Both the position numbers and the translations under genes were made by a program. This document shows, piece after piece, positions 20,056-34,312 of a stretch of 64,000 nt of DNA; the stretch's first letter is position 1; the number at the start of each line of letters is the position of its first letter. The stretch comes from an uncultured Candidatus Saccharibacteria bacterium (lineage in GTDB: Bacteria > Patescibacteriota > Minisyncoccia > Phycocordibacterales > PALSA-1337), in the NCBI GenBank assembly GCA_964367745.1, contig CAYIYK010000003.1:10248-74247 (forward strand), read 5' to 3'. The notes under the pieces are model-generated. The model was not told the origin of the DNA, ran no database searches, and saw only the letters and a program-made list of their open reading frames with translations.

Positions 20056-20724
20056 ATGAAAATCCTGATTATTGAAGACGATGTAGATATTTCCAGTTTC
20101 ATAAAGGACAATCTTACAGAGAGTACATATTCAGTTGAAGTCGCAAAGGATGGACCTGATGGATCATTTCTGGCCAGAACAAATTATCACGATGTTATCA
20201 TAATGGATTATTCACTTCCTTCAAAAGACGGAGTTTTGGTTTGTGAAGAGATAAGATCATCAGGTGTTGAAACACCCATAATATTCCTAACCGTACATAC
20301 AGACGTCAAAAAGAAGGTTAAAGCATTAGAAAAAGGTGCGGATGACTATATGACTAAACCTTTCTCTATCGAAGAGTTAAAAGCGAGGATACAAGCTCTA
20401 GTGCGTAGACCTAGGAAAATCGAAAGTCCTGTACTGATAGTTGGAGACCTAGTTTTGGATACACACAAAAGAACAGTTAGAAGAGGTGAAACACCTATTT
20501 ATCTAACTAGAAAGACTTATGATCTATTGGAATATCTTATGAGGAATAAAGGTATAGTGCTTTCAAGGGGATCTATAATGGAATATGTATGGAACTCAGA
20601 TAGTGATCCATTCTCAAATACCATAGAAGCACATATCCTAAACCTCAGAAAGAAAATCAATGTTAGAGGTAAAAAGGATATACTAAAGAATATTCCAGGT
20701 AGAGGTTATATTATGGGGTCCTAA
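20056..20724 (+). CDS. OmpR-family two-component response regulator (REC + winged-helix); no adjacent histidine kinase
   Basis: 222 aa. The N-terminal receiver MKILIIEDDVDI has the acceptor Asp in VIIMDYSLP. The C-terminal trans_reg_C-like wHTH ends ...GRGYIMGS. Confidence 0.85.
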   Translation: MKILIIEDDVDISSFIKDNLTESTYSVEVAKDGPDGSFLARTNYHDVIIMDYSLPSKDGVLVCEEIRSSGVETPIIFLTVHTDVKKKVKALEKGADDYMTKPFSIEELKARIQALVRRPRKIESPVLIVGDLVLDTHKRTVRRGETPIYLTRKTYDLLEYLMRNKGIVLSRGSIMEYVWNSDSDPFSNTIEAHILNLRKKINVRGKKDILKNIPGRGYIMGS

Positions 20725-22957
20725 ACTTACCTTCTTCTATTTGCTTTATAGCCTCATCTACTTGAGACTTTATAAGTGGGAATCTTTCTTTTGCTTTCTT
20801 TAGAAGTTCAATCGCTTGGTATTCTTGTTTACTCAATAGATAAACATAAGCTAGAGATGAATATACTTCTTGATTGTCTTGATCTTTAGCTAATATCTTC
20901 TTATATATTTCAATAGCTTTATCGTACTGTTTTGACAATACATAAGCATTTATAACTCTTGGATCGCTGAATACTTCGAAATCATCTCCAAATAGCTTCT
21001 TCGCTTTTACTTCTTCACCTGCCGTTATAAGAGCTGTAACGTAAGTAGTCTTGGCGATTGGATTGTCTGTTGCTGATTGATACGCTTTGTCTAATATCTC
21101 AACTGCTTCTTTATTTTTACCGATATTTAGATAGTTGACGGCTAGTTCAAATATTATACTTTGCTTGTTTGGAGAAAGTTCATTTGCTTTTTCAAGTAGT
21201 GGTGTAGCTGTATTAAAATCTCTTATAGTATCATAATAACTTCCACCAATAATATATATTCTTGCATCATTCGGAGTTTTCTTTATTTGATTTTCTATTT
21301 CTTTCTTTGCCAAATCGTAGAATGCAGCCTTTTTATCTTGTTGCATTTGTGGATTTTGTATTACATTTGCTGAACAATTTAATAGTTGCTCAACCGACTC
21401 TTGATTTGCAACTGTCTGTCTTAGTTTGAATATTTTTTCAAATGGTACTACTGATACTGTTTGAGGATTTGAACAAGCTATAAGTGCATTTATAAGTCCT
21501 GTATTCGCTTGTATAGCGCGCACATTCACAAAATACATTGAAGTAATGAATAAGATAACAACAACAGGTACATATACATAATCTCTTACTGTTTCAGCAT
21601 CTTCAGATATTGATTTGCTGTAATTTTTAAATATAAATAAATCTTTATTCTTTCTTAATGAATGAACAAAAGCGAGCAATGTAAAGAACATTACATAACT
21701 TGTTTGATTGTCGAATACGAATACATTGTGTATTGCATATCCTACCAATAGACCGATAAGTATAGATTTTTCACCAATAGTTTTTTCACTTTTAATGATA
21801 AAGATTAGAGAGATTAAATATAGAGCTAGATACGCAACTAATCCTAGTATTCCTCCGGCAACAAACCAATCTAGGAAAACACTGTGTGCTCGATCAAACC
21901 ATTGCTCATGTCTCCACATTTCAGGATTGTAATGTGAATTGAATATATAGTTAAAGTTCTCTTGCCCAACTCCGATAATTGCTGTCTTTGGGCTCTCTGT
22001 AATTCCCTTTATAGCCATAGGCCAAATAAATCTTCTTGCTTGAGTCTTTGTATCTGAAATAGATATAGAAGCCAATCTTCCCAATACTTCATTCTTTTGA
22101 ATCCAACTAGCATTTCTATTGAAATAAAATAGTGTACCGATAACAACTACTAGTAGAATAACTGAACCAGAAACTACTCTACTTATATTTGATTGACCAC
22201 TACTCTTTCTACCAAAAATTGTATAAATAGCACATGAAGCAATAATAGCAATCGTCCAACCTATGATAGTTCCTCGAGTTGCTGTTTGAAACATTATAAA
22301 AGAGAAAAATGCTGCGGCAATAGCATATGAATAGAACAAATGCTTCTTTGCAAAATAACTTATAGCCAAATATCCCGCAATAAATGCATTAAATAACATA
22401 TAAACCGCCATGTATGCAGAGTTACCTAGAGATGCATCGACTCTACTTCCTTGATGTGTTTCTGCCCAACCGAAAAACTGTGTTAGACCGTAAAGTGCAG
22501 TTATAAATCCAGAAACAATTACAACATTGAAAAACTTATGCCAACTCTCTTTTGTCTTAAGTACTGAAGATAGAACCATGAAATAACCCCAAAGGTGTAT
22601 TATCATCAACCAACCTTCCATTCTTTCGAAGTTTGACCAAATACTTCTAAGTGGATTTAGACCAGCTAAGTCAGCAATCAGAGCAATAAGAGTAAATATA
22701 CCTATAGAAATAGATATTGCATTGCATCGCGGAAGAACACTTCTATCTGTTCCGACAACACTAGTGCCTCTTTCTCTGAAAACAAGAATCAGCCATAGAG
22801 CAAAGACAATTTCAACAATTATTCTAAAAGCGAATCCTTTACCAGTGATGAATGGAAAGAATAAAGAATTAACGACGTAAGTTGGGATAAATGGGATTAC
22901 TGCTAAACCGATAATAATTGCGTATTTGATTAAAGTATTTATTGTTGCATTGTTCAT
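20711..22957 (-). CDS. O-antigen ligase-like (Wzy_C) polytopic membrane protein with C-terminal TPR repeats
   Basis: 748 aa. About 12 N-terminal TM helices include a large periplasmic loop typical of Wzy_C/O-antigen ligase/PglL-type proteins. The C-terminal roughly 250 aa are TPR-like (AYVYLLSKQEYQAIELLKKA...). Confidence 0.6.
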   Translation of the reverse strand: MNNATINTLIKYAIIIGLAVIPFIPTYVVNSLFFPFITGKGFAFRIIVEIVFALWLILVFRERGTSVVGTDRSVLPRCNAISISIGIFTLIALIADLAGLNPLRSIWSNFERMEGWLMIIHLWGYFMVLSSVLKTKESWHKFFNVVIVSGFITALYGLTQFFGWAETHQGSRVDASLGNSAYMAVYMLFNAFIAGYLAISYFAKKHLFYSYAIAAAFFSFIMFQTATRGTIIGWTIAIIASCAIYTIFGRKSSGQSNISRVVSGSVILLVVVIGTLFYFNRNASWIQKNEVLGRLASISISDTKTQARRFIWPMAIKGITESPKTAIIGVGQENFNYIFNSHYNPEMWRHEQWFDRAHSVFLDWFVAGGILGLVAYLALYLISLIFIIKSEKTIGEKSILIGLLVGYAIHNVFVFDNQTSYVMFFTLLAFVHSLRKNKDLFIFKNYSKSISEDAETVRDYVYVPVVVILFITSMYFVNVRAIQANTGLINALIACSNPQTVSVVPFEKIFKLRQTVANQESVEQLLNCSANVIQNPQMQQDKKAAFYDLAKKEIENQIKKTPNDARIYIIGGSYYDTIRDFNTATPLLEKANELSPNKQSIIFELAVNYLNIGKNKEAVEILDKAYQSATDNPIAKTTYVTALITAGEEVKAKKLFGDDFEVFSDPRVINAYVLSKQYDKAIEIYKKILAKDQDNQEVYSSLAYVYLLSKQEYQAIELLKKAKERFPLIKSQVDEAIKQIEEGKFRTP

Positions 22958-22992
22958 AATATGGAGATGATATCATATTATGAACATGTTAT

Positions 22993-23940
22993 CTATTGAA
23001 ATTTCTTTAATTTATTGGCTATAAATATATCAGTATCTCTTCTAGATTCATAAGTCATACCTCCTGTATGTGGAGCGATGATTACATTTGAATATTCTTT
23101 TGCAAACTTCACTAATGGATGATTCTTGCAACTATTTTTTGTAAATAGAATCTCACCATCTAGAACGTCAGCTGTATAACCGGCAATCTTTTTTTGCTTT
23201 ATCATAGTCATCAAATCACCTTCATGAACTATTTTGCCTCTTGAAGTATTTATAAGATACGCAGTTTTCTTCATAAGACTCATAGTCTTTTTATTGAAAA
23301 GGAATTCTGTTTCTGGATTCAAATGTACGTGTATAGAAATAAAATCACTTTGTTTTATAAGCTCTTCGAAACTAACTTTTTTCCAATTTAGATTTGATGA
23401 TTCAACTTTTGGATCAGTGAATAGAACTTTCATACCCAAAGCCTCTCCATATCTTGCCATCCATTTTCCAAGTCTACCAAGTCCAACAACTCCCAATGTC
23501 TGACCATTCAGTGAATGCCCTTTGAACTTTTCTCTATTCCATTCCCCCTTTAGAACTGATTGAGTTGAACTAGGAATATGTCTTGAAGAAGATATGAGTA
23601 ATCCCAAAGCTAGTTCAGCAGTGCCAGTAATAGTATTTAGGAAATCATCTTCACCCTTTAGACTTAGAACTTTTATACCCTTTTCCTCAGCGTATTTTAA
23701 ATCGATATGATCCAAACCAGTTGTTGCGGTAACAAGGAACTTTAGATTTTTAGCTTTTGATAGGACTTCACTATTAAAGTTCAATCCCAAACCACAAACT
23801 ACTACATCATATTTTTCTATCTTTTTTAATAGTTCTTGATTTGTAGGTATAACATAATCAACCTTACCTAGAATGTTTAGAATCTTTTTTGCTTCAGGGT
23901 CGAAATCTTTACCGATTGTATTTAGTATTTTGTAGGCCAT
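22993..23940 (-). CDS. D-isomer-specific 2-hydroxyacid dehydrogenase (NAD-binding; glycerate/phosphoglycerate dehydrogenase-like)
   Basis: 315 aa with the NAD-binding motif GVVGLGRLGKWMARYGEALGMKV and the catalytic R/E/H arrangement (HTGGMT). Confidence 0.8.
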   Translation of the reverse strand: MAYKILNTIGKDFDPEAKKILNILGKVDYVIPTNQELLKKIEKYDVVVCGLGLNFNSEVLSKAKNLKFLVTATTGLDHIDLKYAEEKGIKVLSLKGEDDFLNTITGTAELALGLLISSSRHIPSSTQSVLKGEWNREKFKGHSLNGQTLGVVGLGRLGKWMARYGEALGMKVLFTDPKVESSNLNWKKVSFEELIKQSDFISIHVHLNPETEFLFNKKTMSLMKKTAYLINTSRGKIVHEGDLMTMIKQKKIAGYTADVLDGEILFTKNSCKNHPLVKFAKEYSNVIIAPHTGGMTYESRRDTDIFIANKLKKFQ

Positions 23941-23978
23941 TAAGTAATTATCTATAAAATGAAGGAAAAAGCAAATGG

Positions 23979-24422
23979 TTAAACCTTCGGCACCTTTATT
24001 ATAACCAACCTAGCTTTCGTAGAAGTCTTATGTTGATGTGGCTCTCCAGCAGGAATCCATAACCAATCTCCAGGTTTCATCACAACTTCTGTTCCACCCT
24101 TTATTTCTTTTGCTTTCCATTCCCTATCATCTATACTCCCATCAGCATTCTTTTTTACCCAAGGGTCTACCATTTCTCCTCCATAGATAAAGATAACTTC
24201 TCCTTCAAGACAAAACCATAGATCAGCTTCATGCTTGTGTATCTCTGCTTCATTTGAAATATTTATATCCTCCAATATATTCATAGGAACTTTATTCAAA
24301 GCAGAAAAAGCTTTTAGAGGTTCCAAAAGTTTTTTTGTTGGCGTGTCGGCACTAGGACTTGATAGAGTACTATCGATTAAATCTTTACTGATAAAAGCAC
24401 AATTTGATTTATTATTTTCCAT
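23979..24422 (-). CDS. Cupin-domain protein
   Basis: 147 aa. The cupin motifs in EADLWFCLEGEVIFIYGG...PGDWLWIPAGEPHQHK include His/Glu metal ligands. Confidence 0.5.
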   Translation of the reverse strand: MENNKSNCAFISKDLIDSTLSSPSADTPTKKLLEPLKAFSALNKVPMNILEDINISNEAEIHKHEADLWFCLEGEVIFIYGGEMVDPWVKKNADGSIDDREWKAKEIKGGTEVVMKPGDWLWIPAGEPHQHKTSTKARLVIIKVPKV

Positions 24423-24431
24423 TTAATTTAA

Positions 24432-26312
24432 TTAAAATTTAAATCCTTTTTTCTTTAATTCTTTTAACATGTACTCTGTGATAATCCAATCAAGTGGATA
24501 GTCTATATCTATAGATCTCTCTTTTGGTACTATATACCCTGCAATCTTATCTCCATATAACCTCTCTTCTTTCATAATCAAATCTCTTCTCATACAATAT
24601 ATTGCTGCACTTCTCTTGTATGCTACAGGTAGATCTTGTCTTCTTGTACCTTCTACTTCAGGAACAGAATATGCACTGATGAAGTCACCTTCTAATTTTT
24701 TAATCTTAATTGGATTTACATTACTTGGTACTTCAACTATTGATACTGCACTATCTGCTTTTGTATCTATAAGTTTTTGAATTGTTCCATCGATATCGTC
24801 TATAGTTCTAAAAGGTGAAGTTGGCTGAAGAATAACTACATAGTCGATAGTGATATTATTTTTCTTTTCATAAAAATCTATTGCATGTTGCATTACAGGA
24901 AGATGTGGAGTTGAATCTAGAGCCAATTCTTTTGGTCTCATAAAAGGTACATCTGCACCATACTTCTTACACACATCGGCAATCTCTTTGTCATCTGTTG
25001 AAACGATAAGATGATTTATCAATTTACTTTTCTTTGCAGCATCGATTGTATATGCAATAAGAGGTTTATTGCCAAGTTTCTTTATATTCTTACCCGGAAT
25101 ACCTTTTGACCCTCCGCGAGCTGTAATAACGCCAAGGACGTTTGGAGTTCTGTATTCCCTATCTACATGTTCTTCTGTAAGCGGTTCAAATTTCTTTATA
25201 TCTTTTATTATTTTTTTATCCAAAATATCATGGAAAAGATTCGAGAAAATTCCATTTAGATGAAGTCTTGGTCTCATAGCGTAAACCATATCACTCGTGA
25301 TTATTGTTCCAGCTTTAATATCTCTTGAAGCAACGAGTGTTTTGTTGAAATAAGGTCTAAACTTATTTTGTGCACCTTCCAATTCTTTTTCCTTTTGACC
25401 GTAGAAAATATTTGTATCTATTTTCTTATATTCATTTTTCTTAATACCAGAGACCAATTGTTTCATTTCTTCTGGAGTTACTGAAGCTTTATGGTCTGAA
25501 CCCCAAAGGCCTCGGTCTAGAGAAAAGTGTTTCTCTATAACCTGCGCACCCATTTTTACTGCAGCTAAAGGAATAGTATTATCTCCAACTGAATGATCAG
25601 AAAAACCGATGATCGCTTGAGGGTATTTTTCTCTAAAATATTCTATAGTAGAAAGGTTAAAAGCTTCTGGAGGACATGGATATTCACTAACGCAATATAG
25701 AATAATAATTGGTGACCCACGCTTTGTTATATAGTCAACAACGTCATCCAACTCTTTGTGACTAACCATTCCTGTTGAAATGATTATTGGTTTTTGTGTC
25801 TTTGTAATAAAGTCCAAAAGAACATGATCCTGAACATCACCAGAACCTACTTTCCAGAAAGGTACATCTAGATTCTCAAGCTTAACCGCTGCCATTCTAG
25901 ACATCGGAGTTGAGAAGAATATAATTCCCTTTTTTTCTGAATATCTTTTTATCTCTTTGAAGAATTCTATAGGTGCTTCTTCAGTATTTCTTTTAACCCA
26001 AGAATATCTATCACTGCCTTTGAAGTGCGGAGAAACTACATTTATATTTGCTTGTTCATCTTCAACTTCATGAGTTTGAAATTTCACAGCATGTGCACCA
26101 GCTTTTACTGCTTCGTCGATAAGCTTTTTTGCATTTTTAATATAGACTTTTAGAGGTTGAGACTCTTGTGTTTGTATAAAATTCTTACCGATTTCAGCAA
26201 TAACAAAAACTTTATCTTTTGATATGATCTTAGAGATAGCGTGAGGTTTCACTATTTTTGAATTTTTGTTCTTACTGGCTTTAGAAGATTTAACAGACTT
26301 TTTTGTTTTCAT
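24432..26312 (-). CDS. neuBA: Bifunctional nonulosonic (sialic) acid synthase NeuB-like + SAF domain + CMP-nonulosonate cytidylyltransferase NeuA-like
   Basis: The N-terminal roughly 330 aa match NeuB/PseI/LegI: VIAEIGKNF, KFQTH, FFSTPMS, KVGSGD, IIGFSDH, EKHFS, and the SAF segment KTLVASRDIKAGTIITSDM. The C-terminal roughly 230 aa match CTP_transf_3/NeuA (LGVITARGGSKGIPGKNIKKLGNKPLIAYTIDAA). A Lys-rich N-terminal tail is present. Confidence 0.8.
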   Translation of the reverse strand: MKTKKSVKSSKASKNKNSKIVKPHAISKIISKDKVFVIAEIGKNFIQTQESQPLKVYIKNAKKLIDEAVKAGAHAVKFQTHEVEDEQANINVVSPHFKGSDRYSWVKRNTEEAPIEFFKEIKRYSEKKGIIFFSTPMSRMAAVKLENLDVPFWKVGSGDVQDHVLLDFITKTQKPIIISTGMVSHKELDDVVDYITKRGSPIIILYCVSEYPCPPEAFNLSTIEYFREKYPQAIIGFSDHSVGDNTIPLAAVKMGAQVIEKHFSLDRGLWGSDHKASVTPEEMKQLVSGIKKNEYKKIDTNIFYGQKEKELEGAQNKFRPYFNKTLVASRDIKAGTIITSDMVYAMRPRLHLNGIFSNLFHDILDKKIIKDIKKFEPLTEEHVDREYRTPNVLGVITARGGSKGIPGKNIKKLGNKPLIAYTIDAAKKSKLINHLIVSTDDKEIADVCKKYGADVPFMRPKELALDSTPHLPVMQHAIDFYEKKNNITIDYVVILQPTSPFRTIDDIDGTIQKLIDTKADSAVSIVEVPSNVNPIKIKKLEGDFISAYSVPEVEGTRRQDLPVAYKRSAAIYCMRRDLIMKEERLYGDKIAGYIVPKERSIDIDYPLDWIITEYMLKELKKKGFKF

Positions 26313-26348
26313 ATGTTATATCCTATGCTATTTAAAAATTTTTGCAAC

Positions 26349-26380
26349 AAAAAAAATCCACCCAGTAAAACCAGGTGGAA
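26349..26380 (-). terminator. Rho-independent terminator for the GC-rich methyltransferase gene (minus strand)
   Basis: On the minus strand the stem ttccacc...ggtggaa (26357-26380) is followed by T8 (26349-26356). It lies between the methyltransferase stop (26409) and the neuBA start (26312). Confidence 0.55.
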
Positions 26381-26408
26381 ATTGTGTTGAGTGTTCAGTA
26401 CTCGAAGA

Positions 26409-27347
26409 TCAAAGCCTGCGAGCGGTGACCACAACCGACGGGTGGTATGCGGTAAAGTTGAGGAGATTCTGGTCTGCCTCAAAAACGCTACGGATTCCAA
26501 TACCAACAATCTTGAGCTTGTCCTCAATCGGAAGCTTGTCGAGCGGTTCCCAACGGCACCAAGTGGCCCAGGCATTGCGAATGAAATCGACGATTCGACT
26601 CCCAACAACAGGAACGAGGGTTTCATTCACACGGAAGATCTCGAAACCATTTTGCTCGAGAGCAGACTTGAGATCAACAAGCGAGAATGCCTTTGCTTTG
26701 GGTGCCCAGAGATTTTCGCGAGTGAAATCAGGATACTTTGACCGAACATAATTGTAAGCTGCATCGTGCGCAATCCTATAAAGCGGATGCGAGAGTTCGG
26801 TTGTGATCTGATCCGGCCCCGGCTCAGACTTTGACCGGAAATCGTGCAAATTGCACTTCCAATCCGAATAATTGGACGGACCGAAGTCAAAACTGAGAGT
26901 TCCACGAACCTTGAGGCAAGAACTGATTGCTTTCAAGGAAGCATCGAGGGTATCCCGCAAAAGATGAAACATCTGACAACAGACAGCGGCGTCATGAAGA
27001 CCTACAACATGCCGATCCAGAAATTCCGCTTTCATTGTGTAAGCATTCACCCTCGGATTACCCATCAAATTGAGGAGAAGGAAATGCATCATGCTTTCAT
27101 TCGGCTCAACAGCCGAAACGAGCGCCTTCGTCCTCTTGAGAATAACTGCTGTACTGACACCAGTGCCGGCGCCAATCTCCAACACTGAATTGATTCCATT
27201 TTTGTTGGCTTGAATCGCCTCACTAACAACGAATTCAGCCATTTCAGTGTAGTATTTGTCACGACCATTGAAGGCCGAGTATGCTGCGCCGACATTCCCT
27301 TCGAAGAGTTTCGAACCGAGGATTGCACTAACATTACTTGTACTCAT
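26409..27347 (-). CDS. Class I SAM-dependent methyltransferase encoded by a GC-rich (~48% GC) island, probably horizontally acquired
   Basis: 312 aa containing motif I LEIGAGTGVSTAVIL. GC content is sharply elevated relative to flanks of about 30% GC. The high GC produces many spurious overlapping ORFs on both strands in the six-frame track. Confidence 0.7.
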   Translation of the reverse strand: MSTSNVSAILGSKLFEGNVGAAYSAFNGRDKYYTEMAEFVVSEAIQANKNGINSVLEIGAGTGVSTAVILKRTKALVSAVEPNESMMHFLLLNLMGNPRVNAYTMKAEFLDRHVVGLHDAAVCCQMFHLLRDTLDASLKAISSCLKVRGTLSFDFGPSNYSDWKCNLHDFRSKSEPGPDQITTELSHPLYRIAHDAAYNYVRSKYPDFTRENLWAPKAKAFSLVDLKSALEQNGFEIFRVNETLVPVVGSRIVDFIRNAWATWCRWEPLDKLPIEDKLKIVGIGIRSVFEADQNLLNFTAYHPSVVVTARRL

Positions 27348-27523
27348 TTTTTTAAGAACTGCATCATGACTTTATTATCATGATTTTCGTTTAATCTATA
27401 ACATATTATTGTAAATTTAGCAATAGTACGATATTTAAATATTAAACTATAGAAAATAATTGACGTAATACTTTTTTAATGATATTGTATATTAAATTTA
27501 AACAAACAGTTCATTAAAAAAAT

Positions 27524-28477
27524 ATGACAGCAAAAAATGTTGGAAATTGGCAAAAATGGGCCTTCTTGGAAGGAATAACAAGGACCTTATCAAGGACTCT
27601 ACAAAAAGTTGTTGGTTCCGTATCTAACAACTGGGAGAATACCCTACTAGCTGCCGGCATAATCGGTTTTGTTCAAGTTCTGTCAGCTGTAATCATTACA
27701 AGAAAGACGAAAGAAAAACTTCTGTGTGATCCAGCAGGAATCATCGGCTGTTTGATTTTTGGTCTTATAGCTCTAGTATGTACTGTATTAGGCTTCGCAA
27801 CTTTCCTTTATGGAGGAGATATTACTGTTAGTACTTTTATCATTGCCCTGTCCATCATTCCAAGTATGATAATCGACATCGTCTTCTTCAACTACAAATC
27901 TAGTCGTAGAGAATGGATTGGGATTTTTGTGGCGGTTATAGCTGGTTGGGCAGTTCTAGACTTCCCAAACTTAGCTAGCATGCTTAAGTTGCCTATGTGG
28001 GTAGGCCTTTCATTCATCACCATGATCCTTGTGGCAATAAATCAAGGAATCACACAATCAATCAAAGATATTTCCCCGATGTTCAAAAACTTCTGGGGTG
28101 GTATGGTGGCACTAATACTGTCACCAGTTATCATGATCGTGATTGGCAAAGGTGGATTCTTACTCAGTTTCCCAGATAATAAAGTACTATGGTTTACCTC
28201 AGCTATGATTGGGATCATAGTGATAGCCATATGGTCTTTCAACCTTCTGAGCTACAAGGACGGTGCGAGTATCGCATTAAAAAAACTTGTAGTAAGTAGT
28301 ATTTACTTTATCAGTACCACGTTTCTTGGAAGCATCGTATTTAACGAAGCAATGACTGCTGGGAAAATTATTGCAATCCCTCTTTTTATTATTTCATACT
28401 TCCTTATGAGTAAGGAAGCCTACAATTTCGTACTAGCGAAGCGGATACCGAAGTGGATAAAGTGGATATTGAAGTGA
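27524..28477 (+). CDS. Hypothetical polytopic membrane protein (about 9-10 TM; possibly DMT/EamA-like transporter)
   Basis: 317 aa and highly hydrophobic throughout. No catalytic motifs were recognised. Confidence 0.45.
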   Translation: MTAKNVGNWQKWAFLEGITRTLSRTLQKVVGSVSNNWENTLLAAGIIGFVQVLSAVIITRKTKEKLLCDPAGIIGCLIFGLIALVCTVLGFATFLYGGDITVSTFIIALSIIPSMIIDIVFFNYKSSRREWIGIFVAVIAGWAVLDFPNLASMLKLPMWVGLSFITMILVAINQGITQSIKDISPMFKNFWGGMVALILSPVIMIVIGKGGFLLSFPDNKVLWFTSAMIGIIVIAIWSFNLLSYKDGASIALKKLVVSSIYFISTTFLGSIVFNEAMTAGKIIAIPLFIISYFLMSKEAYNFVLAKRIPKWIKWILK

Positions 28478-28507
28478 TGTCTAAGTAAATACAGTAATCT
28501 CTCAAAG

Positions 28508-28540
28508 CCCTCACGTAAAAAGCGTGGGGGTCTTTTTATT
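28508..28540. terminator. Hairpin terminator (ccctcacg-taaaaag-cgtggggg + TCTTTTTATT) between convergent genes
   Basis: An 8 bp stem with one G-U pair is followed by a T-tract. It overlaps the stop of the minus-strand NeuC gene and lies 30 bp after the stop of the plus-strand membrane protein. Confidence 0.5.
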
Positions 28541-29693
28541 CAACAAAAGTCTTTTGAGTATAAAGAGGTACAGTAGCTATAACCTCTGCAATCTTTTTAC
28601 TTGTACCTTCTGCAAAATATAGACTTGATGATTCGTATCTGCCTTTTTTAACTTGTTTCTCTATTGCTTTCTTTATAGCTTTAATATCATGGTCTACAGT
28701 TACTACATTTTCTGCACTCAATCTTTTGAATTGTCTATTACCAATATTCACCACAGGCAAACCCATAAAAGAAGATTCCTTTATTCCAGCTGATGAATTC
28801 CCTATCAAACATAGACTGTTATTCAATAGCCAAATAAAATCCTTTGGACCCATATATCGCATGAAGCGTATTTTATGTCCTTTAACTTCATCTTTAAAAA
28901 TTCGAAGCTCATGTGATATATCTTCTGCACCGGCATCAGCATTTGGCCAAAACCAAAGTGTTGGAATCTTTAGACTATGTACAGCATCAAGGATTTTCTT
29001 TGTATTTTCATGTACATGCTTCACATCCATAATATCAGGATGATACATAACTATTAGATATCCTTTCTTTAGATCAAAAAGGGCCCCACTTCCTGTTTTC
29101 TTTATATCGAATTTATGTTTATTTTTTGCTAATTTTTGTACAACTTCTATTTCTGGACTACCAAAATTGAAAACGTGAGATTCTCTTTCTCCAAGTCTCA
29201 ATACTCTTTTTCTTGCTGGTTCATTTGTTGTAAAGTGAATATGAGAAAGTTTTGTGATAGCGTGTCTTACACTTTCATCTATTGATCCAGATACATCACC
29301 ACCTTCTATGTGTGCGATAGGTATAGATAAATATGCAGCTGCAATTGTAGCTGATAGAACTTCAAATCTATCACCTCTTACCACAACGACATCAGGTTTA
29401 ATCTGATTAAAAAGTGTAGTGAATTCTATTATTCCTAGTCCTGTTGTTTTTGCTTTTACGATTGTATCATTCCCTTCTAGATTGAAATGTAGTTCGTATA
29501 GCTTGTTATATCCGTCTTCCGTCAAAAGTTTTCTTATATCAGCAAGTTTTGAAGTATAACGAGACAATAAAGCTGTACCTCCAACTATTATATGTAGGTC
29601 AATATCCTTTCTTTTCTTTAGTTCTTCTAGAATAAGAAAGTTACGACTATAGTGTATGAAACTTGTAATAACAAAGCAGACTTTTCTCTTCAT
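28536..29693 (-). CDS. neuC: UDP-N-acetylglucosamine 2-epimerase (hydrolysing), NeuC-like
   Basis: 385 aa of the Epimerase_2 family. Motifs VVVRGDRFEVL and AHIEGGDVSGSIDESVRHAITKLSHIHF match. Confidence 0.8.
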   Translation of the reverse strand: MKRKVCFVITSFIHYSRNFLILEELKKRKDIDLHIIVGGTALLSRYTSKLADIRKLLTEDGYNKLYELHFNLEGNDTIVKAKTTGLGIIEFTTLFNQIKPDVVVVRGDRFEVLSATIAAAYLSIPIAHIEGGDVSGSIDESVRHAITKLSHIHFTTNEPARKRVLRLGERESHVFNFGSPEIEVVQKLAKNKHKFDIKKTGSGALFDLKKGYLIVMYHPDIMDVKHVHENTKKILDAVHSLKIPTLWFWPNADAGAEDISHELRIFKDEVKGHKIRFMRYMGPKDFIWLLNNSLCLIGNSSAGIKESSFMGLPVVNIGNRQFKRLSAENVVTVDHDIKAIKKAIEKQVKKGRYESSSLYFAEGTSKKIAEVIATVPLYTQKTFVE

Positions 29694-29696
29694 AGT

Positions 29697-30680
29697 CTAG
29701 CTAATATGCAGTATTTTTCGTAAAAATGCAAATCTATTTGAATACTTTATTATGTATATTATTTTAACCAAGATTGGTGATAGTGATACGCGCGCTTTAA
29801 GATAAATATTCTTCGGAATTTCTATATCTTTTGATAATGTATCCTTCCTTGCAACCAAACGTATATGGTGGGTATTCAATCCATCTTGTTTTTGCTTCTT
29901 TATTTGTTCTTGCTTTTTACCTTCATCAACATCCATATAGACGATTACGAAACCTGCTTTTTTACACATTAAAGAAAGTGTCTCTGGTGTAAACATATAG
30001 ACATGGTCAATCTGCACTCCAGACTGAAGCTTCCCCATTCTTCTAACTTGATGTCTCCAGTTTTTCACTGCAAGGAAAATATGACCACCTGGTTCCAGTG
30101 CTTCATGTGACCAATTTAGGAATTTCATTGGATCTAAAAGATGGTTCAAACTTTGAACACAAAGAATATTTTTTACTTTATTCTTAATATCCATATTCAC
30201 ATCTTCAAAAAGCCCGCGAATAGTCTTTACGCCTTTTGATTCTGCATAACCCGATTCTTCAAGCGAAGGTTCAATACCTAGCAGTTCTAGATTTTTCCTA
30301 GATTCCCTCATACCAAAAAGGATTCCACCAGTACTTGAACCAACGTCGATAGTAAGTCCGTCTTTTACATATTTACCCATATAACTGACTATAGCCTTAC
30401 CGAATCTTCTAGCATTCTCGAAGTTCTTCTCTAGATCAGAATTGTATTCACGATTCTTTATACTAGCTCTATCTTGTCTATAAAAAGACATATAGTATTC
30501 ATCATAATCTTTTGCAGTCATACGTGGGTTAATAAAGACTAGACTGCACTTCTTACACATTACTGTATTTGCTTTGAGATTGTTTACACTTCTTTTAACA
30601 ATTATTTTAAAATCATTTCCACCACAAAGATTACATGCGATGTATTCTAAATTCTTTTTATTATAATCAAATCCTTCCAT
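29697..30680 (-). CDS. SAM-dependent methyltransferase with N-terminal Cys4 zinc-ribbon (paralog 1 of 3)
   Basis: The Zn ribbon is C-NLC...CKKC, followed by SAM motif I IDVGSSTGG. The architecture resembles Methyltransf_13/14 sugar C/O-methyltransferases. Confidence 0.65.
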   Translation of the reverse strand: MEGFDYNKKNLEYIACNLCGGNDFKIIVKRSVNNLKANTVMCKKCSLVFINPRMTAKDYDEYYMSFYRQDRASIKNREYNSDLEKNFENARRFGKAIVSYMGKYVKDGLTIDVGSSTGGILFGMRESRKNLELLGIEPSLEESGYAESKGVKTIRGLFEDVNMDIKNKVKNILCVQSLNHLLDPMKFLNWSHEALEPGGHIFLAVKNWRHQVRRMGKLQSGVQIDHVYMFTPETLSLMCKKAGFVIVYMDVDEGKKQEQIKKQKQDGLNTHHIRLVARKDTLSKDIEIPKNIYLKARVSLSPILVKIIYIIKYSNRFAFLRKILHIS

Positions 30681-30681
30681 T

Positions 30682-32040
30682 TTATTTAATTAAATTAATT
30701 ATATAATCTGCAATTCTCTTTCCTGATAAACCGTCTGTATAACTTGTCTGTTCTTTTACCAAGATCTCTCTTTCTTTACTCTTTACTGATGGATCATCAA
30801 GATATTTATTTATTGAATCCAATAACTCTTGTTTGCTATTAACTAGATCGATAGCACCGGTCTTTAATGCATTCTTATAATGCCAAGTTCTATAGTATTG
30901 TACAGGAGATTTCAATAATTTTGGAATTATATTTATTTCAAAATTTATATTTATTACAGGTTTATTAAAAATACTTGCATCGATACTAATACTTGAAGCA
31001 TAGCAAACCAAAACAGACATATGATAAAGAGTATCCTGCAAATGTTCTAGATCTGCTTTATTCATATCCCAATCTACACCTCTTTTTGTACCAAAACGTA
31101 TACCAGGCTTATCATATTTTAGATCTGGTCTCTTTGATATTTCTTCTTCATCAACAAAGTCATTTGGTTGGAATCGGACCAATAATTCACATTCGTATTT
31201 CAATTCATTTGAGTGAATAGTTTTTTGCAAAAGGTCGATTATATCCCAATCTGCAGAACTGAACGCTCTCCCCATTGGAGCGTATACTATCAATTTCTTA
31301 TCACTTGATATTTTTATTTTATTAAAAAATTCTTCTCTTAAAATAGGTTTCCTTGTGTAGAAGAAATCGTATTGTGGCAGACCGCTGATAAAAATATCTT
31401 CCGATTTCATTTCATTCAAATCAATCATCTCCTTTTTTACGATATCGTTAAAAACTATAGCTTTATCAGGTAATAATCTTAAAATGCATCTTGATGTAAC
31501 TTTGTCCCAAGAGTTTATATAGCCTATCGTTTTTATTTTTCTTTTTTTTGCTTCTCTTAAAAGATTGATTTCTATTTCTTCAAATAGATGTGCGGTGAAA
31601 ACAAGATCTGGTGAATATTTATCAAAATATTCACTATATGTATTGTCTTTTATTAAAATAAAATCCAAATATCGTACGATTCTTCTTATCACAGGCCAAG
31701 CCAAAATATAGTTCGATACTTTACCAAAATAGTATCCGAAAAATCTTCCTTCATATTCACTTACCATTTTCCTTTTTAAATCTGTTGTTTCAGTTCTAAG
31801 TAAAGTGAATTTCATCTTTGAGAAAAACCCATCAAACATTGGTACAGATTTTTGCTCGACAAATTCAAATACTATTCTTGGATCATTGAATTCATTTTTA
31901 TAATAATCAACTTTTTGTTGTGATTTTGTAAATAGAACAATTTTAATATCTTTATTTAAAAGAAGATTTTCCAAAATCGGTGTTCGTAGAATATTTTTTA
32001 CTTCTACACCCTCAAAGATTGTTACAAATATTGTCTTCAT
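30682..32040 (-). CDS. Surface-carbohydrate biosynthesis transferase-like protein (paralog 1 of 3; TagB/TagF-like or capsule-synthesis-like GT-B fold, speculative)
   Basis: 452 aa. It shares conserved blocks with ORFs 32037..33365 and 36479..37873, including the N-terminal MKTIF, the GYINSWDKVTS(R/K)(C/G)I block and V/IYAPMGR (reminiscent of the YAPT(W/F)R block of CDP-glycerol glycerophosphotransferases). The function is not established. Confidence 0.45.
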   Translation of the reverse strand: MKTIFVTIFEGVEVKNILRTPILENLLLNKDIKIVLFTKSQQKVDYYKNEFNDPRIVFEFVEQKSVPMFDGFFSKMKFTLLRTETTDLKRKMVSEYEGRFFGYYFGKVSNYILAWPVIRRIVRYLDFILIKDNTYSEYFDKYSPDLVFTAHLFEEIEINLLREAKKRKIKTIGYINSWDKVTSRCILRLLPDKAIVFNDIVKKEMIDLNEMKSEDIFISGLPQYDFFYTRKPILREEFFNKIKISSDKKLIVYAPMGRAFSSADWDIIDLLQKTIHSNELKYECELLVRFQPNDFVDEEEISKRPDLKYDKPGIRFGTKRGVDWDMNKADLEHLQDTLYHMSVLVCYASSISIDASIFNKPVININFEINIIPKLLKSPVQYYRTWHYKNALKTGAIDLVNSKQELLDSINKYLDDPSVKSKEREILVKEQTSYTDGLSGKRIADYIINLIK

Positions 32041-33365
32041 TTATTTATTGATTCTAGTATTGCATTAAAAAGTCTTTCAGTATTTTTGCCATCCAAAAAT
32101 CCAGTTTCCATCTCTGCTAGTTTCTTTCTTTTATCTTTATCCAGACTAGGATTTTTAACGTATTCTTCTACATAGTCTTTAAATTGACGCATAGATTCAG
32201 CCAGCTTCACACCTCCACTCTCTATTACTGGAATAAAATTGTTATAATCATAATATCTTCTTATACTATCAAAATATTCCCTTTTTTCATGTCCGTCAAA
32301 ACCAAAAAGGATTATTGGTTTATCCATATATGCAGAATCCAAAACTAAAGTTGATGGTGAGCTGATAACCAATTCTGACCAGAACAATGTATGAGCAAGA
32401 TGTATATCATCATCTTTATCGATCTCTGTAATTTTTATATTATCAAATTTAGGTTTTGCTCTGTCATACATAACCTTAATATTTGGAAACTTCGGACTAT
32501 TCTCCAATTCTCTAACATAATCTCCAGGTGGAAGTCTGACTAGAAGTTGATAATCATTTGGTAAAGTCTTATCCAAAATATCTACAATATCTCTGTCTAC
32601 AGTATTTTTTCTCAAATATCGATCACCTAGAGGTATAAATAAAGCCAGCTTTTTATTCTGATCACCACCTATTTTTTCTATAAATTCTTTTCTATTTGTA
32701 AATACATTCTTTTTATAATCATCATAGTGTGGAATTCCGACAATAGATATTATTGATTCATTTATTCCTTGAAGATCTTTTGCTTCATCTTTAATGATAT
32801 TGTTCCAAACAAAAAGTCTATTCGGAATCGTTCGAATGATACCTTTTGAAGTAAGATTGTCCCAAGAACGAACCATACCGATAGTCTTTATACCTGAGGA
32901 ATTACCTTCATTTAAAATCGCTATATCGATTTCGCTTTGAATATCGGTAGCGAATACGCAATCAGGTTTATACTGCTCAAATAATTTATCAAATTTTTTA
33001 TTTTTATAACTTACTCTTTCCAAGAATCTTACGAATTTATGCCCGATTTTATTTGATAATAAATAAGTTAAATACATTCCACTCCCTTTCATCTCTGTCT
33101 TCCTTTTTATATAAAGAGTTTTTGTATTTAATGCTGTTAGCGAAAGATACTTTAATAAATTTTCTCTTTTAGCATTTTTAAATTCTATTCCTTCAACAAC
33201 TACCCCATCTCTTTCAAAACTTTCTTTAAAAAAACTCTCTTTATTTTTTGGAGCAATTATTACAACTTTTATTTCATTCTTAACAAAGAGATCCAAAATT
33301 CCAGATGAAAGAATATTTCTTGATATTAGAGGATGGCAACTAGTTATAAAAATTGTCTTTTTCAT
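32037..33365 (-). CDS. Surface-carbohydrate biosynthesis transferase-like protein (paralog 2 of 3)
   Basis: 442 aa and a paralog of 30682..32040. It has the same MKKTIFIT start and the same RSWDNLTSKGI block. The two genes are adjacent and overlap by 4 bp. Confidence 0.45.
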   Translation of the reverse strand: MKKTIFITSCHPLISRNILSSGILDLFVKNEIKVVIIAPKNKESFFKESFERDGVVVEGIEFKNAKRENLLKYLSLTALNTKTLYIKRKTEMKGSGMYLTYLLSNKIGHKFVRFLERVSYKNKKFDKLFEQYKPDCVFATDIQSEIDIAILNEGNSSGIKTIGMVRSWDNLTSKGIIRTIPNRLFVWNNIIKDEAKDLQGINESIISIVGIPHYDDYKKNVFTNRKEFIEKIGGDQNKKLALFIPLGDRYLRKNTVDRDIVDILDKTLPNDYQLLVRLPPGDYVRELENSPKFPNIKVMYDRAKPKFDNIKITEIDKDDDIHLAHTLFWSELVISSPSTLVLDSAYMDKPIILFGFDGHEKREYFDSIRRYYDYNNFIPVIESGGVKLAESMRQFKDYVEEYVKNPSLDKDKRKKLAEMETGFLDGKNTERLFNAILESINK

Positions 33366-34312
33366 TATCTTTTAAGGAATTGCTGTAGACGTACTGTAAG
33401 TAAATATCTTAAATAAATATAATATTTGTTTATTGATAATAAAGTAAAAATATAATTACCCTTACCTATTGTTAAATCCTTGAAGGGGGTTTTATTCAAT
33501 CTTTTAGCCACAATGCGAATATGTACTTTTGGAATTCCCTGCATGACCTTCTTTTTTGTATATTCATTAGCTTCAAAGAAAAGGATTTCGAATCCAGCTG
33601 ATACAATGAAATCTCTCAAAACCTCAGGTGTATACATATAGACATGGTCGATCTTTACACTATTTTCATACTTTCCTGCTTTTTGTAATTGCTGTCGAAA
33701 ATTCATAACTTCAACTACAAGAAGTCCATTATCAAAAAGAGACTCGTGAGCCCATTTGAAAAAATATCTAGGATCCAAATAGTGATTTAAAGCTTGAGTA
33801 CTGACTATAACTGCGAATTTTTCTTTTTTATTATGATCTTCGATTAGAGCATGATAAGTCTTTATTCCTTGAGAATTCGCATAATCTGATTCAATCTTTG
33901 ATGGCTCAAGACCAATTACTTCTCTATTCAAAAATCTTTTCATTCCTTCCAAAACTCCTCCGACACCAGAACCGACTTCCATTATTGAGCCTTTTACTTT
34001 TAGATATGGTGATATAAGCTCACCCAAGAATTTGCCGTGTCCGATGGTTGATTCGAACAATTTCTTACAATCAAAATCTGAACCTGCTTCGCCATTGTTT
34101 ATAGTTTTTTGTCTGTATTCTTCTTCATAATAGAATTTGTAACCAGACTTTGTCATTCTAGGATTTATATAAATAAGCCCGCATTTTTTACAAATAACAG
34201 AATTCAAAGCAAGACCATCAGTGCCTTTTTTTGACAGGATTTTATAATTGTTACTTAAACAGAAACTGCAAGCAATATTCTCCTTTTCAATTGTATTGTA
34301 TGGGAAAGACAT
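33365..34312 (-). CDS. Zn-ribbon SAM-dependent methyltransferase (paralog 2 of 3); ORF extends to 34432 but the homology-supported start is Met at 34312
   Basis: From MSFPYNTIEKENIACSFCLSNNYKIL...CKKCGLIYINPRMT it aligns colinearly with the N-terminus of paralog 1 (MEGFDYNKKNLEYIACNLCGGNDFKII...CKKCSLVFINPRMT). SAM motif I is MEVGSGVGG. Confidence 0.65.
   Translation of the reverse strand: MSFPYNTIEKENIACSFCLSNNYKILSKKGTDGLALNSVICKKCGLIYINPRMTKSGYKFYYEEEYRQKTINNGEAGSDFDCKKLFESTIGHGKFLGELISPYLKVKGSIMEVGSGVGGVLEGMKRFLNREVIGLEPSKIESDYANSQGIKTYHALIEDHNKKEKFAVIVSTQALNHYLDPRYFFKWAHESLFDNGLLVVEVMNFRQQLQKAGKYENSVKIDHVYMYTPEVLRDFIVSAGFEILFFEANEYTKKKVMQGIPKVHIRIVAKRLNKTPFKDLTIGKGNYIFTLLSINKYYIYLRYLLTVRLQQFLKR

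What the first reader, a model, noticed from the sequence alone, without database searches (positions are those of the whole stretch)
26313..27400. Single-gene GC-rich island (~48% GC versus ~30% flanks) encoding a SAM methyltransferase with its own terminator: probable horizontal acquisition into the glycan locus
The 939 bp methyltransferase gene has a strikingly different base composition and therefore different codon usage. The region is free of stop codons in many frames, which produces about 8 overlapping spurious ORFs in the six-frame track. A rho-independent terminator (hairpin plus T8) sits at 26349..26380 and AT-rich divergent promoter DNA lies upstream, so the gene is an independent transcription unit. 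It looks like a recent gene gain that extends the methylation repertoire of the glycan pathway.
Basis: seen in the sequence. Interest (0 to 1): 0.6.

Follow-up and report, generated by a model that had tools for sequence, protein, structure and literature searches.

The report
Conserved GC-rich methyltransferase gene, not recent import
The GC-rich gene is real and encodes a rare methyltransferase in a sialic-acid-like surface-sugar locus of an ultra-small (CPR) bacterium, but its odd composition is an old, actively maintained trait shared by its relatives and not the mark of a recent gene transfer.

Summary
ORF 26409-27347 (-) encodes a 312-aa class I SAM methyltransferase with GC 0.48 and GC3 0.51, against 0.33 and 0.24 for 50 other ORFs. 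It has a clean intrinsic terminator, and the extra ORFs are spurious. Orthologs at 75, 59 and 56% identity sit at the same position (NeuC, EamA, MT, NeuB/NeuA, cupin) in other low-GC relatives and are equally GC-rich. Synonymous divergence matches the flanks. On the window and nearest-relative branches, GC->AT changes (21) roughly equal AT->GC changes (27), whereas neutral decay predicts about 3:1. Across 14 loci with host GC3 from 0.18 to 0.70, three families run above host GC3: this methyltransferase (+0.19), its always-adjacent EamA transporter (+0.13) and a third unknown gene (+0.15). Seven neighbouring families do not. The excess is confined to coding sequence. As a group these genes fold more stably than synonymous shuffles, although the window's own copy does not. 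Best reading: a conserved MT-EamA glycan-modification module whose GC-rich coding sequence is held by a gene-specific fixation bias of unresolved cause. The family is tiny (about 23 clusters in 1.8 billion) and known only from CPR bacteria.

The parts
26409..27347 (-). MT*: 312-aa class I SAM-dependent small-molecule methyltransferase CDS, the GC-rich island (GC 0.483, GC3 0.508)
   Evidence: ORF. Pfam Methyltransf_12/25 above cutoff. AF2 model pLDDT 92.2. Foldseek hits to RebM, BioC, Tam and PfPMT at TM 0.45-0.57. Composition.
26349..26379 (-). Intrinsic terminator of MT*: 10-bp stem, 3-nt loop, T8
   Evidence: A hairpin at the same position is present in L001 and L026 (same sequence; a T->C change turns a G.U pair into G-C) and in L005 and L007 (different sequences).
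27348..27425 (-). Conserved promoter-like and leader block upstream of MT*: -35 TTGCTA 27423..27418, 17-nt spacer with TG, -10 TATAGA 27400..27395, two TCATGAT repeats at 27383..27377 and 27369..27363, no obvious SD
   Evidence: Nearly identical in W, L001 and L026 even though dS is about 0.7. The TATGT.A core is invariant in all five sequences. Promoter function is inferred. It falls below the consensus threshold of the scan.
27348..27523 (.). AT-rich (GC 0.18) divergent intergenic region between MT* and EamA
   Evidence: A + strand promoter-like site, TTGACG-17-TATTGT with TG, lies at 27460..27488 upstream of EamA.
27524..28477 (+). EamA/DMT-family transporter, the obligate neighbour of MT*, also GC3-elevated (0.406)
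   Evidence: Pfam EamA 30.3 bits, cutoff 28.2. It is adjacent to MT* in every locus where the neighbouring DNA was recovered. Mean dGC3 is +0.13, positive in 12 of 13 loci.
24432..26312 (-). NeuB-NeuA fusion (nonulosonic acid synthase plus CMP-NulO synthetase), host-like composition
   Evidence: Pfam NeuB, SAF and CTP_transf_3. The best NCBIfam match is NeuB_NnaB, below its cutoff. GC3 0.225.
23979..24422 (-). Cupin-like 147-aa gene conserved next to NeuB/NeuA
   Evidence: ORF. Orthologous position carries Cupin_2 in L001, L005, L022 and L025. dGC3 +0.03.
28536..29693 (-). NeuC-type UDP-GlcNAc 2-epimerase, host-like composition
   Evidence: Pfam Epimerase_2, E = 4e-68. GC3 0.189.
22993..23940 (-). 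D-2-hydroxyacid dehydrogenase, conserved locus member
   Evidence: Pfam 2-Hacid_dh_C. Co-occurs in L005, L022, L023 and L024.

Best explanation
The island is the coding sequence of an uncharacterised, CPR-restricted class I SAM-dependent small-molecule methyltransferase (MT*). Together with the adjacent EamA/DMT transporter gene it forms a conserved two-gene module inside a sialic-acid-like (NeuC, NeuB, NeuA) surface-glycan locus. MT* is transcribed on its own, from a conserved promoter-like block to a conserved intrinsic terminator. By inference it methylates the nonulosonic acid, its CMP-activated form or a precursor. The high GC is not a scar of recent import. It is a maintained, near-equilibrium property of this coding sequence, and to a lesser degree of the EamA gene and a third family (unk350), in genomes of very different base composition. 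In effect there is a gene-specific GC-favouring fixation bias of about 1-2 logit units that opposes the host's AT-biased mutation. Shown here: conservation of the gene in synteny, conservation of its composition, balanced synonymous flux, specificity to three families, and restriction to coding sequence. Inferred: the cause. I favour selection on synonymous sites acting on the coding sequence or transcript, for example on mRNA folding or stability. The composition may originally have been seeded by an ancient transfer from a mid-GC Patescibacterium.
For: Synteny and composition are conserved. Orthologs at 75% (L001), 59% (L005/L006) and 56% (L007, a Saccharibacteria MAG) identity occupy the same slot, with GC 0.50-0.54 and GC3 0.54-0.61 in contigs of 32-36% GC. 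Divergence tracks the flanks: W-L001 dS is 0.69 for MT* against 0.37-1.40 for the flanks, and all genes are near saturation against L005 and L007. Synonymous flux is balanced: W has S>W 10 and W>S 13, L001 has 11 and 14. Simulated neutral decay to the host equilibrium gives an S>W fraction of 0.73, and 0 of 600 simulations were as low as the observed 0.44. Equilibrium at 0.55 predicts 0.51. The L026 copy, which has an IS inserted just upstream, shows the neutral-decay pattern (21:6, GC3 0.43) and so calibrates the null. The effect is family-specific across 14 loci with host GC3 of 0.18-0.70: MT* +0.19 (13 of 14, p = 0.0002), EamA +0.13 (12 of 13), unk350 +0.15 (6 of 6), while NeuB, NeuA, NeuC, 2HADH, cupin, Wzy and Glyphos all lie within +/-0.025. 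The excess also appears in GC-rich hosts (L014 0.93 vs 0.70, L016 0.92 vs 0.54), which rules out regression toward a shared gene-pool mean. It is not expression codon bias, since GroEL and enolase have GC3 of 0.23 and 0.20. It is confined to coding DNA, since intergenic DNA inside the module is not elevated. GC-elevated genes fold more stably than synonymous shuffles with local composition fixed: mean z -2.2 (n = 11) vs -0.04 (n = 10), MWU p = 0.0009. Ordinary mid-GC genes give z near 0. GC3 is higher at conserved residues (OR 1.3-1.6) in the four maintained copies and not in L026 (OR 1.04).
Against: The cause is not established. The window's own MT* shows no excess folding (z +0.1 to -0.8). 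Sense and antisense strands give similar z values, so RNA-level selection cannot be separated from DNA-level complementarity. The polarity test rests on one trio and 48 changes. The 14 loci are not phylogenetically independent and represent about 9-10 lineages. One lineage (L008, Sungiibacteriota) shows no excess, and several show only +0.07 to +0.10. GC1 and GC2 are also raised (0.54 and 0.40), which synonymous-site selection alone does not explain. The decay in L026 could instead reflect a different mutational regime in that organism. The Akashi-type signal is weak in each gene taken alone. The substrate of the enzyme is unknown.
Confidence: 0.55

Rival explanations
1. Ancient horizontal transfer with incomplete neutral amelioration. 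The MT-EamA module entered the ancestor of the low-GC (Saccharibacteria-like) clade from a mid- or high-GC Patescibacterium and is still drifting toward host composition.
For: The third-position profile of W MT* (A .13, T .36, G .24, C .27) matches ordinary genes of mid-GC Patescibacteria (L022 background .18/.31/.29/.23). In Sungiibacteriota (L008) the MT and EamA genes have host composition. GC1 and GC2 are also shifted, and GARP amino acids are 0.24 against 0.19. The L026 copy is visibly decaying. With the lowest flank distances, an ancestor with GC3 of 0.8-1.0 could in principle leave 0.5-0.6 today (derived), and family members with GC3 of 0.92 exist.
Against: Balanced S>W and W>S flux on the W and L001 branches rejects ongoing decay (0 of 600 simulations). 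GC3 stays at 0.51-0.61 in four lineages despite near-saturated 4-fold divergence. The excess also exists in GC-rich hosts (L014, L016, L025), where no richer donor is known. No member of the family was found outside CPR-type contigs.
Confidence: 0.18
2. Recombination hotspot with GC-biased gene conversion or recurrent allele replacement. The variable modification genes of the locus are exchanged often between lineages, and biased repair or fixation raises GC at all codon positions.
For: dS along the locus is mosaic (0.37-1.40 for W vs L001). The EamA N-terminus groups L026 with L001 (94.5% vs 86% to W), while MT* is a star (75/73/72%). MT* and EamA have the highest dN/dS in the locus (about 0.25 and 0.17, against 0.03 for NeuB). 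G3, C3, GC1 and GC2 all rise. Gene order and orientation of MT and EamA differ between clades, and an IS has inserted there.
Against: Intergenic DNA inside the module is not GC-enriched, including in tandem arrangements. The boundaries fall exactly at the start and stop codons. Excess folding relative to shuffles is not predicted by this model. The effect size (dGC3 up to +0.38) is far larger than the few percent I recall being reported for bacterial gBGC (own knowledge, not checked here).
Confidence: 0.18
3. Recent single-gene horizontal acquisition into this genome.
For: Strong compositional outlier with sharp gene-level boundaries and its own promoter-like region and terminator.
Against: The gene is present at the same position with the same composition in relatives down to 56% identity. 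dS matches the flanks. There is no amelioration flux. There are no flanking repeats, tRNA or integrase, and no plasmid or viral relatives.
Confidence: 0.02
4. The high GC is imposed by an overlapping antisense or alternative-frame gene, or by an embedded structured RNA.
For: The codon-aligned antisense frame has only 3 stops in W and open runs of up to 117 codons. GC-rich genes show excess folding as a group.
Against: No alternative frame is open end to end in any ortholog, with 2-11 stops in the best frame. Stop counts do not fall below synonymous shuffles except in the +2 frame, which still has 3-27 stops. There is no Rfam match at E <= 1. The excess folding is diffuse along the gene and absent in W.
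Confidence: 0.02
5. Assembly or binning artefact (a chimeric contig).
For: The source is probably a metagenome-assembled genome, judging from its MAG and metagenome relatives, and the composition switches abruptly.
Against: The same junctions are reproduced in independent assemblies from four sources. The flanking regulatory DNA is conserved up to the gene boundaries.
Confidence: 0.01

Closest known systems
Class I (Rossmann-fold) SAM-dependent small-molecule methyltransferases, e.g. RebM sugar O-MT, BioC, trans-aconitate MT, phosphoethanolamine N-MT (Pfam Methyltransf_11/12/25)
   Same: Has the GxGxG motif I (G59, G61, G63), an acidic residue after beta-2 (E81) and the seven-stranded fold. 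Foldseek probability is 1.0 against these structures.
   Different: Only 11-17% identity and TM 0.45-0.57. It has a distinctive C-terminal half of about 160 aa with family-invariant motifs (GPSN, DxR, TELSHPL, NLW, FxRNxW, RW, YHP) that is not shared with any solved structure. No NCBIfam equivalog applies. There are only about 23 clusters worldwide.
neu/NulO (sialic, legionaminic, pseudaminic acid) biosynthesis clusters with accessory modification genes
   Same: NeuC-type epimerase, NeuB synthase and NeuA cytidylyltransferase are adjacent, within a Wzx, Wzy, GT and TagF-like glycan locus.
   Different: The accessory pair here is a methyltransferase plus a DMT transporter, together with a cupin and a 2-hydroxyacid dehydrogenase. 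I found no paper describing such a module or NulO loci in CPR. Which NulO is made is unresolved, because NeuB scores below both the NeuB and PseI cutoffs.
Classical horizontally acquired genomic island undergoing amelioration (Lawrence & Ochman model; own knowledge)
   Same: Gene-bounded compositional and codon-usage outlier within a surface-polysaccharide locus.
   Different: It is present in relatives, co-diverges with its flanks, shows no GC->AT flux excess and has no mobility signatures.
GC-biased gene conversion in bacteria, and selection for local mRNA secondary structure in coding regions (own knowledge of the literature; not retrieved here)
   Same: A directional GC-favouring fixation bias of weak-selection magnitude (logit offset about 1-2). 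Native sequences fold better than synonymous shuffles.
   Different: The bias is specific to three gene families, conserved across phylum-level divergence and a host GC range of 33-60%, very large (up to +0.38 GC3) and limited to coding sequence.
DMT/TPT-family nucleotide-sugar transporters such as the eukaryotic CMP-sialic acid transporter (own knowledge), as an analogue for the EamA partner
   Same: EamA domains, with faint TPT hits in several orthologs, encoded next to the CMP-NulO synthesis genes.
   Different: There is no evidence on substrate or direction. It is only a weak Pfam member with no NCBIfam family.

Membership tests
Class I SAM-dependent methyltransferase | Sequence match to curated family models above threshold | tested here: met
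   Methyltransf_12 scores 31.4 bits (cutoff 30) and Methyltransf_25 scores 30.8 bits (cutoff 27).
Class I SAM-dependent methyltransferase | SAM-binding motif I (GxGxG) and an acidic residue at the end of beta-2 | tested here: met
   G59 and G63 are invariant, G61 is at least 90% conserved, and E81 is invariant in 30 sequences.
Class I SAM-dependent methyltransferase | Seven-stranded Rossmann-like fold | tested here: met
   The AF2 model has pLDDT 92.2 and pTM 0.88. The top 50 Foldseek PDB matches are almost all class I methyltransferases (one is the MT-fold cyclase SpnF) at probability 1.0.
Class I SAM-dependent methyltransferase | Methyl transfer to a defined substrate | not testable with these tools
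   Needs an enzyme assay. The substrate is inferred only from gene neighbourhood.
Named methyltransferase equivalogs (BioC, RsmA/KsgA, Erm, CpaM, UbiE etc.) | Score above the NCBIfam curated cutoff | tested here: not met
   The best hit is CpaM at 31.6 bits against a cutoff of 180, and all others are far below their cutoffs.
Recently acquired genomic island | Atypical base composition and codon usage | tested here: met
   GC z = 4.5 and GC3 z = 5.8.
Recently acquired genomic island | Absent from the syntenic locus of close relatives | tested here: not met
   Present at the same position in L001, L005/L006, L007 and L026.
Recently acquired genomic island | Ongoing amelioration (GC->AT excess at synonymous sites) | tested here: not met
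   W and L001 together show 21 S>W against 27 W>S. Simulated neutral decay expects a fraction of 0.73.
Recently acquired genomic island | Mobility signatures (flanking repeats, tRNA, integrase or transposase) | tested here: not met
   No tRNA in 64 kb. Only short, AT-rich, low-identity repeats flank the gene. The neighbours are NeuB-NeuA and EamA. A transposase is present only in the L026 relative.
Intrinsic (Rho-independent) terminator | GC-rich hairpin directly followed by a T-run, downstream of the stop codon | tested here: met
   10-bp stem plus T8, starting 29 nt after the stop codon. Its position is conserved, with one compensatory change. Termination itself was not measured.
NulO (neu-type) biosynthesis locus | NulO synthase, CMP-NulO synthetase and 2-epimerase encoded together | tested here: met
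   NeuB with CTP_transf_3, and Epimerase_2. NeuB_NnaB scores 252 bits but is below the equivalog cutoff of 399.65.
NulO (neu-type) biosynthesis locus | MT* acts on the NulO or its precursor | not testable with these tools
   The only evidence is strict co-occurrence with EamA and NeuB across the family.

The most novel reading that the evidence does not exclude
Three gene families of the CPR nonulosonic-acid locus (this methyltransferase, its EamA partner and an unannotated protein of about 350 aa) carry a gene-intrinsic GC set-point. A selective pressure on the coding sequence or transcript itself, for example a need for a GC-rich, highly folded and long-lived mRNA, holds them 0.1-0.4 GC3 units above whatever the host genome's composition is. 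It has done so across phylum-level divergence, and it relaxes when the module is disrupted (the L026 IS insertion).
Probability: 0.3. Interest if true: 0.7.

Novelty: new variant of a known kind. Interest (0 to 1): 0.5.

Why it matters
Compositional outliers are routinely read as recent horizontal transfers. Here a textbook-looking island turns out to be an old, syntenic, vertically co-diverging gene whose GC content is held away from the genome's mutational equilibrium. If the maintained, family-specific GC excess is confirmed, it would be an unusually clean and strong case of gene-specific fixation bias at synonymous sites in bacteria with tiny genomes. It would also be a caution for GC-based HGT detection in CPR genomes. 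Separately, the MT-EamA pair defines an uncharacterised, very rare modification module of sialic-acid-like surface glycans in episymbiotic bacteria, where surface sugars plausibly mediate attachment to hosts.

Tried and rejected
Overlapping or antisense gene: no alternative frame is conserved open, and stop counts match synonymous shuffles. Known structured RNA: Rfam found nothing at E <= 1 in 25800-28600. High-expression codon bias: GroEL and enolase have background or lower GC3. Strand-asymmetric A3 avoidance as a special signal: it turned out to be ordinary codon usage of mid-GC Patescibacteria. Dinucleotide or local-composition artefact in the folding test: the signal survived dinucleotide-preserving and within-block shuffles, and ordinary mid-GC genes gave z near 0. 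Sense versus antisense folding: not discriminating. Phage or plasmid carriage: no relatives found. Insertion scars: none. Relaxed protein constraint in L026: not seen, with 32 unique aa changes against 27 and 28. Literature on CPR NulO loci or locally maintained GC: nothing relevant retrieved. Function by structure: only generic small-molecule MT matches. Organism name for the window: the cluster look-up carries no names, and the window's own protein is not in the contig index. The metagenome and genome scans added few loci because the family is so rare.
Full report
OBSERVATION. The feature is real. In 300-bp windows GC is 0.43-0.49 from 26350 to 27399 and 0.28-0.37 on either side. The only long ORF that accounts for it is 26409..27347 on the - strand (312 aa). 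Its GC is 0.483 (GC1 0.54, GC2 0.40, GC3 0.51). The other 50 ORFs of at least 150 aa in the window have GC 0.332 +/- 0.033 and GC3 0.241 +/- 0.046, so the gene lies at z = 4.5 and 5.8. It passes the Pfam thresholds for Methyltransf_12 and Methyltransf_25. The terminator is confirmed: a 10-bp stem with a 3-nt loop and T8 on the - strand at 26379->26357. The other ORFs over the gene are by-products of low stop-codon density. No alternative frame stays open in any ortholog, and stop counts match synonymous shuffles.

CONTEXT. The gene lies inside a large surface-glycan locus. The locus contains a NeuB-NeuA fusion (24432..26312), a cupin (23979..24422), a 2-hydroxyacid dehydrogenase, a Wzy-like protein, a NeuC-type epimerase (28536..29693), two other methyltransferases, TagF-like transferases, a GT9 and a Wzx-like flippase. 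Elsewhere the window encodes RNR, GroEL, enolase, RNase J and type IV pilus genes. The closest named relative of the locus is a Candidatus Saccharibacteria MAG. More distant family members come from Sungiibacteriota and unclassified Patescibacteria.

THE GENE IS OLD AND SYNTENIC. The protein family is tiny. A word-indexed search found 11 proteins, a profile search found 31, and an exhaustive HMM scan of 1.84 billion representatives found 23 clusters at E <= 1e-30, followed by a sharp drop to Rossmann-only hits. Orthologs at 75% (L001), 59% (L005/L006) and 56% (L007) identity lie in the same order: NeuC, EamA (divergent), MT, NeuB/NeuA, cupin. In more distant members the MT is still next to an EamA gene in all but one locus (L010), usually with NeuB, NeuA, NeuC, a cupin and 2HADH nearby. 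These orthologs are just as GC-rich, with GC 0.50-0.54 and GC3 0.54-0.61 in contigs of 32-36% GC, and the EamA gene is again intermediate. Independent assemblies from four sources also exclude a chimera.

CO-DIVERGENCE AND NO AMELIORATION. Between W and L001, dS of the MT (0.69) lies within the range of the flanking genes (0.37-1.40). Against L005 and L007 all genes are near saturation, and 4-fold-site identity is 0.38-0.40 for MT* against 0.38-0.49 for the flanks. The identity ranking (L001 closer than L005 and L007, which are about equal) is the same for MT* and the flanks. The MT is the fastest-evolving protein of the locus, with dN/dS about 0.25 against about 0.03 for NeuB. Using the trio W, L001 and L026 (198 codons with identical amino acid and identical first two bases), I polarised third-position changes. 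W has 10 GC->AT and 13 AT->GC, and L001 has 11 and 14. A simulation that includes parsimony error gives a GC->AT fraction of 0.73 under neutral decay to the host equilibrium. None of 600 replicates was as low as the observed 0.44. Equilibrium at GC3 0.55 predicts 0.51. So in these two lineages the gene is at compositional equilibrium near GC3 0.5, inside genomes whose equilibrium is about 0.22. The third copy, L026, behaves as the neutral model predicts (21:6, GC3 0.43). In L026 an IS256-type transposase has inserted immediately upstream of the MT promoter-like block, separating it from EamA. Its protein is not visibly relaxed, with 32 unique substitutions against 27 and 28.

A FAMILY-LEVEL TRAIT. 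I called ORFs in 14 loci, assigned them to families and expressed GC3 relative to the median of the other genes in each locus. MT* averages +0.19 and is positive in 13 of 14 loci (Wilcoxon p = 0.0002). EamA averages +0.13 (12 of 13). An unannotated protein of about 350 aa (unk350, absent from this window) averages +0.15 (6 of 6). NeuB, NeuA, NeuC, 2HADH, cupin, Wzy and the TagF-like genes are all within +/-0.025. The host background ranges from 0.18 to 0.70. The excess is also present in GC-rich hosts: L014 0.93 vs 0.70, L016 0.92 vs 0.54, L025 0.77 vs 0.66. A shared mid-GC gene pool would instead pull the gene below the host in those cases. Expressed as logit offsets, the bias is 1.2-2.3 in seven loci and 0-0.55 in the rest. 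The loci are not independent and represent roughly 9-10 lineages. One lineage (Sungiibacteriota, L008) shows no excess.

WHAT MAINTAINS IT? High-expression codon bias is unlikely, since GroEL and enolase have GC3 of 0.23 and 0.20. The A3-poor, T3-retaining third-position profile equals normal usage in mid-GC Patescibacteria. There is no overlapping gene and no Rfam RNA. Intergenic DNA inside the module is not enriched (W 0.18 against 0.26 elsewhere, L014 0.64 against 0.61, L022 0.41 against 0.39). The effect is therefore confined to coding sequence, which argues against a purely regional process. I then folded 120-nt windows and compared them with synonymous shuffles. GC-elevated genes are more stable than expected, and neighbouring host-like genes are not. 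This held with plain shuffles, with dinucleotide-preserving shuffles and with shuffles that keep each window's codon set exactly: mean z -2.2 (n = 11) against -0.04 (n = 10), MWU p = 0.0009. Ordinary genes of mid-GC relatives give z near 0, and so do MT* and EamA where their GC excess is small. However, the window's own MT* shows no excess (z +0.1 to -0.8), and antisense strands give similar z values. The signal is therefore suggestive, not decisive, and is not strand-resolved. GC3 is also somewhat higher at conserved residues (odds ratios 1.3-1.6) in the four maintained copies and not in L026 (1.04). GC1, GC2 and GARP amino acids are raised as well, which fits a nucleotide-level bias or a foreign origin. 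dS along the locus is mosaic, and the EamA and MT trees disagree for L026, so recombination-linked bias remains a live rival.

TRANSCRIPTION UNIT. A hairpin sits between the MT stop codon and the NeuB start codon in all five clade members. W and L026 share the same sequence over the stretch available, although the L026 contig ends inside the hairpin. L001 differs by a T->C change that converts a G.U pair into G-C. L005 and L007 have different hairpins. Upstream, 78 nt (27425..27348) are nearly identical in W, L001 and L026 despite dS of about 0.7. This block contains TTGCTA, a 17-nt spacer, then TATAGA with an upstream TG, plus two TCATGAT repeats, and it has no clear SD. Promoter and operator roles are inferred.

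FUNCTION. The AF2 model is confident (pLDDT 92.2). It matches small-molecule class I methyltransferases (RebM, BioC, trans-aconitate MT, phosphoethanolamine N-MT) at TM 0.45-0.57 and 11-17% identity. No PDB or NCBIfam relative is close enough to assign a substrate. The C-terminal half carries family-invariant Arg, His and Trp motifs, which would be compatible with an anionic substrate, though that is an inference. From its adjacency to an EamA/TPT-like transporter in almost every locus and its frequent proximity to NeuB, I infer that it methylates the nonulosonic acid, its CMP-activated form or a precursor. I infer that the transporter moves that substrate or product. Neither inference is tested.

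VERDICT. The island label and the recent-HGT reading are not supported. The most likely description is a conserved MT-EamA glycan-modification module whose coding sequences are held GC-rich by a gene-specific fixation bias (confidence about 0.55). Ancient transfer with slow amelioration and recombination-linked GC bias are the main rivals, at about 0.18 each. The enzyme itself is a new, rare member of a known fold. The maintained, family-specific compositional offset is the unusual part.

Noticed in passing
L026:459-1433 (relative; the corresponding window position is about 27425-27523): In one close relative an IS256-type transposase (PF00872) has inserted between EamA and the MT, immediately upstream of the conserved -35-like element. 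That MT copy is intact but has lower GC3 (0.43) and a 21:6 GC->AT excess, and it lacks the enrichment of G/C-ending codons at conserved sites.
   Followed up: partly
L005:13430-14560; L022:14204-15232; L023:14741-15796; L024:11055-12122; L008:17383-18375: An unannotated protein family of about 330-376 aa with no Pfam or NCBIfam hit recurs in these NulO loci. It is GC3-elevated like the MT (+0.10 to +0.33, 6 of 6 loci). It has no homolog in this window by tblastn.
   Followed up: partly
window 5834-6628 (+): A second compositional outlier outside the glycan locus: a 264-aa ORF with GC 0.405 and GC3 0.423, no family match, and a hydrophobic stretch around residues 78-115. Whether its orthologs are also GC-elevated was not checked.
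   Followed up: no
window 24432-26312 (-) vs L005:11079-12933: NeuB and NeuA (CMP-NulO synthetase) are fused into one 626-aa ORF in the window and in L001, but are separate adjacent genes in L005/L006 and more distant relatives.
   Followed up: no
window 20711-34432 vs L001: Synonymous divergence from the closest relative varies four-fold along the locus: NeuB and NeuA 0.37-0.38, EamA 0.40, MT 0.69, NeuC 1.07, MT23a 1.40. The EamA N-terminus groups L026 with L001, while the MT is star-like. This suggests a mosaic recombination history within the locus.
   Followed up: partly
window 27363-27383 (-): Two copies of TCATGAT spaced 14 nt start to start lie in the conserved, SD-less leader of the MT. 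This may be an operator. A response regulator gene (20056-20724) is conserved at the edge of the locus.
   Followed up: no
window 26409-27347 and orthologs: The +2 reading frame has fewer stop codons than synonymous shuffles in six of nine orthologs (p <= 0.03) but still contains 3-26 stops. Avoidance of T|A at codon junctions is a likely cause, and an ORF is not.
   Followed up: partly
L022:11019-12914; L023:10600-12469: Mid-GC relatives carry two tandem EamA paralogs downstream of the MT instead of one divergent copy. The order and orientation of MT and EamA differ between clades, but the two genes stay adjacent.
   Followed up: no
window 1-64000: ARAGORN found no tRNA gene anywhere in the 64-kb window. 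Type IV pilus genes (PilB-like 60792-62507, PilC-like 58086-59294, pilin 57496-57975) and a T4SS coupling-protein-like gene (53949-55823) lie downstream of the glycan locus.
   Followed up: no
window 33365-34432 (-): The mechanical ORF is 355 aa, whereas its orthologs are 312-317 aa, so the true start is probably about 40 codons downstream of the first ATG.
   Followed up: no
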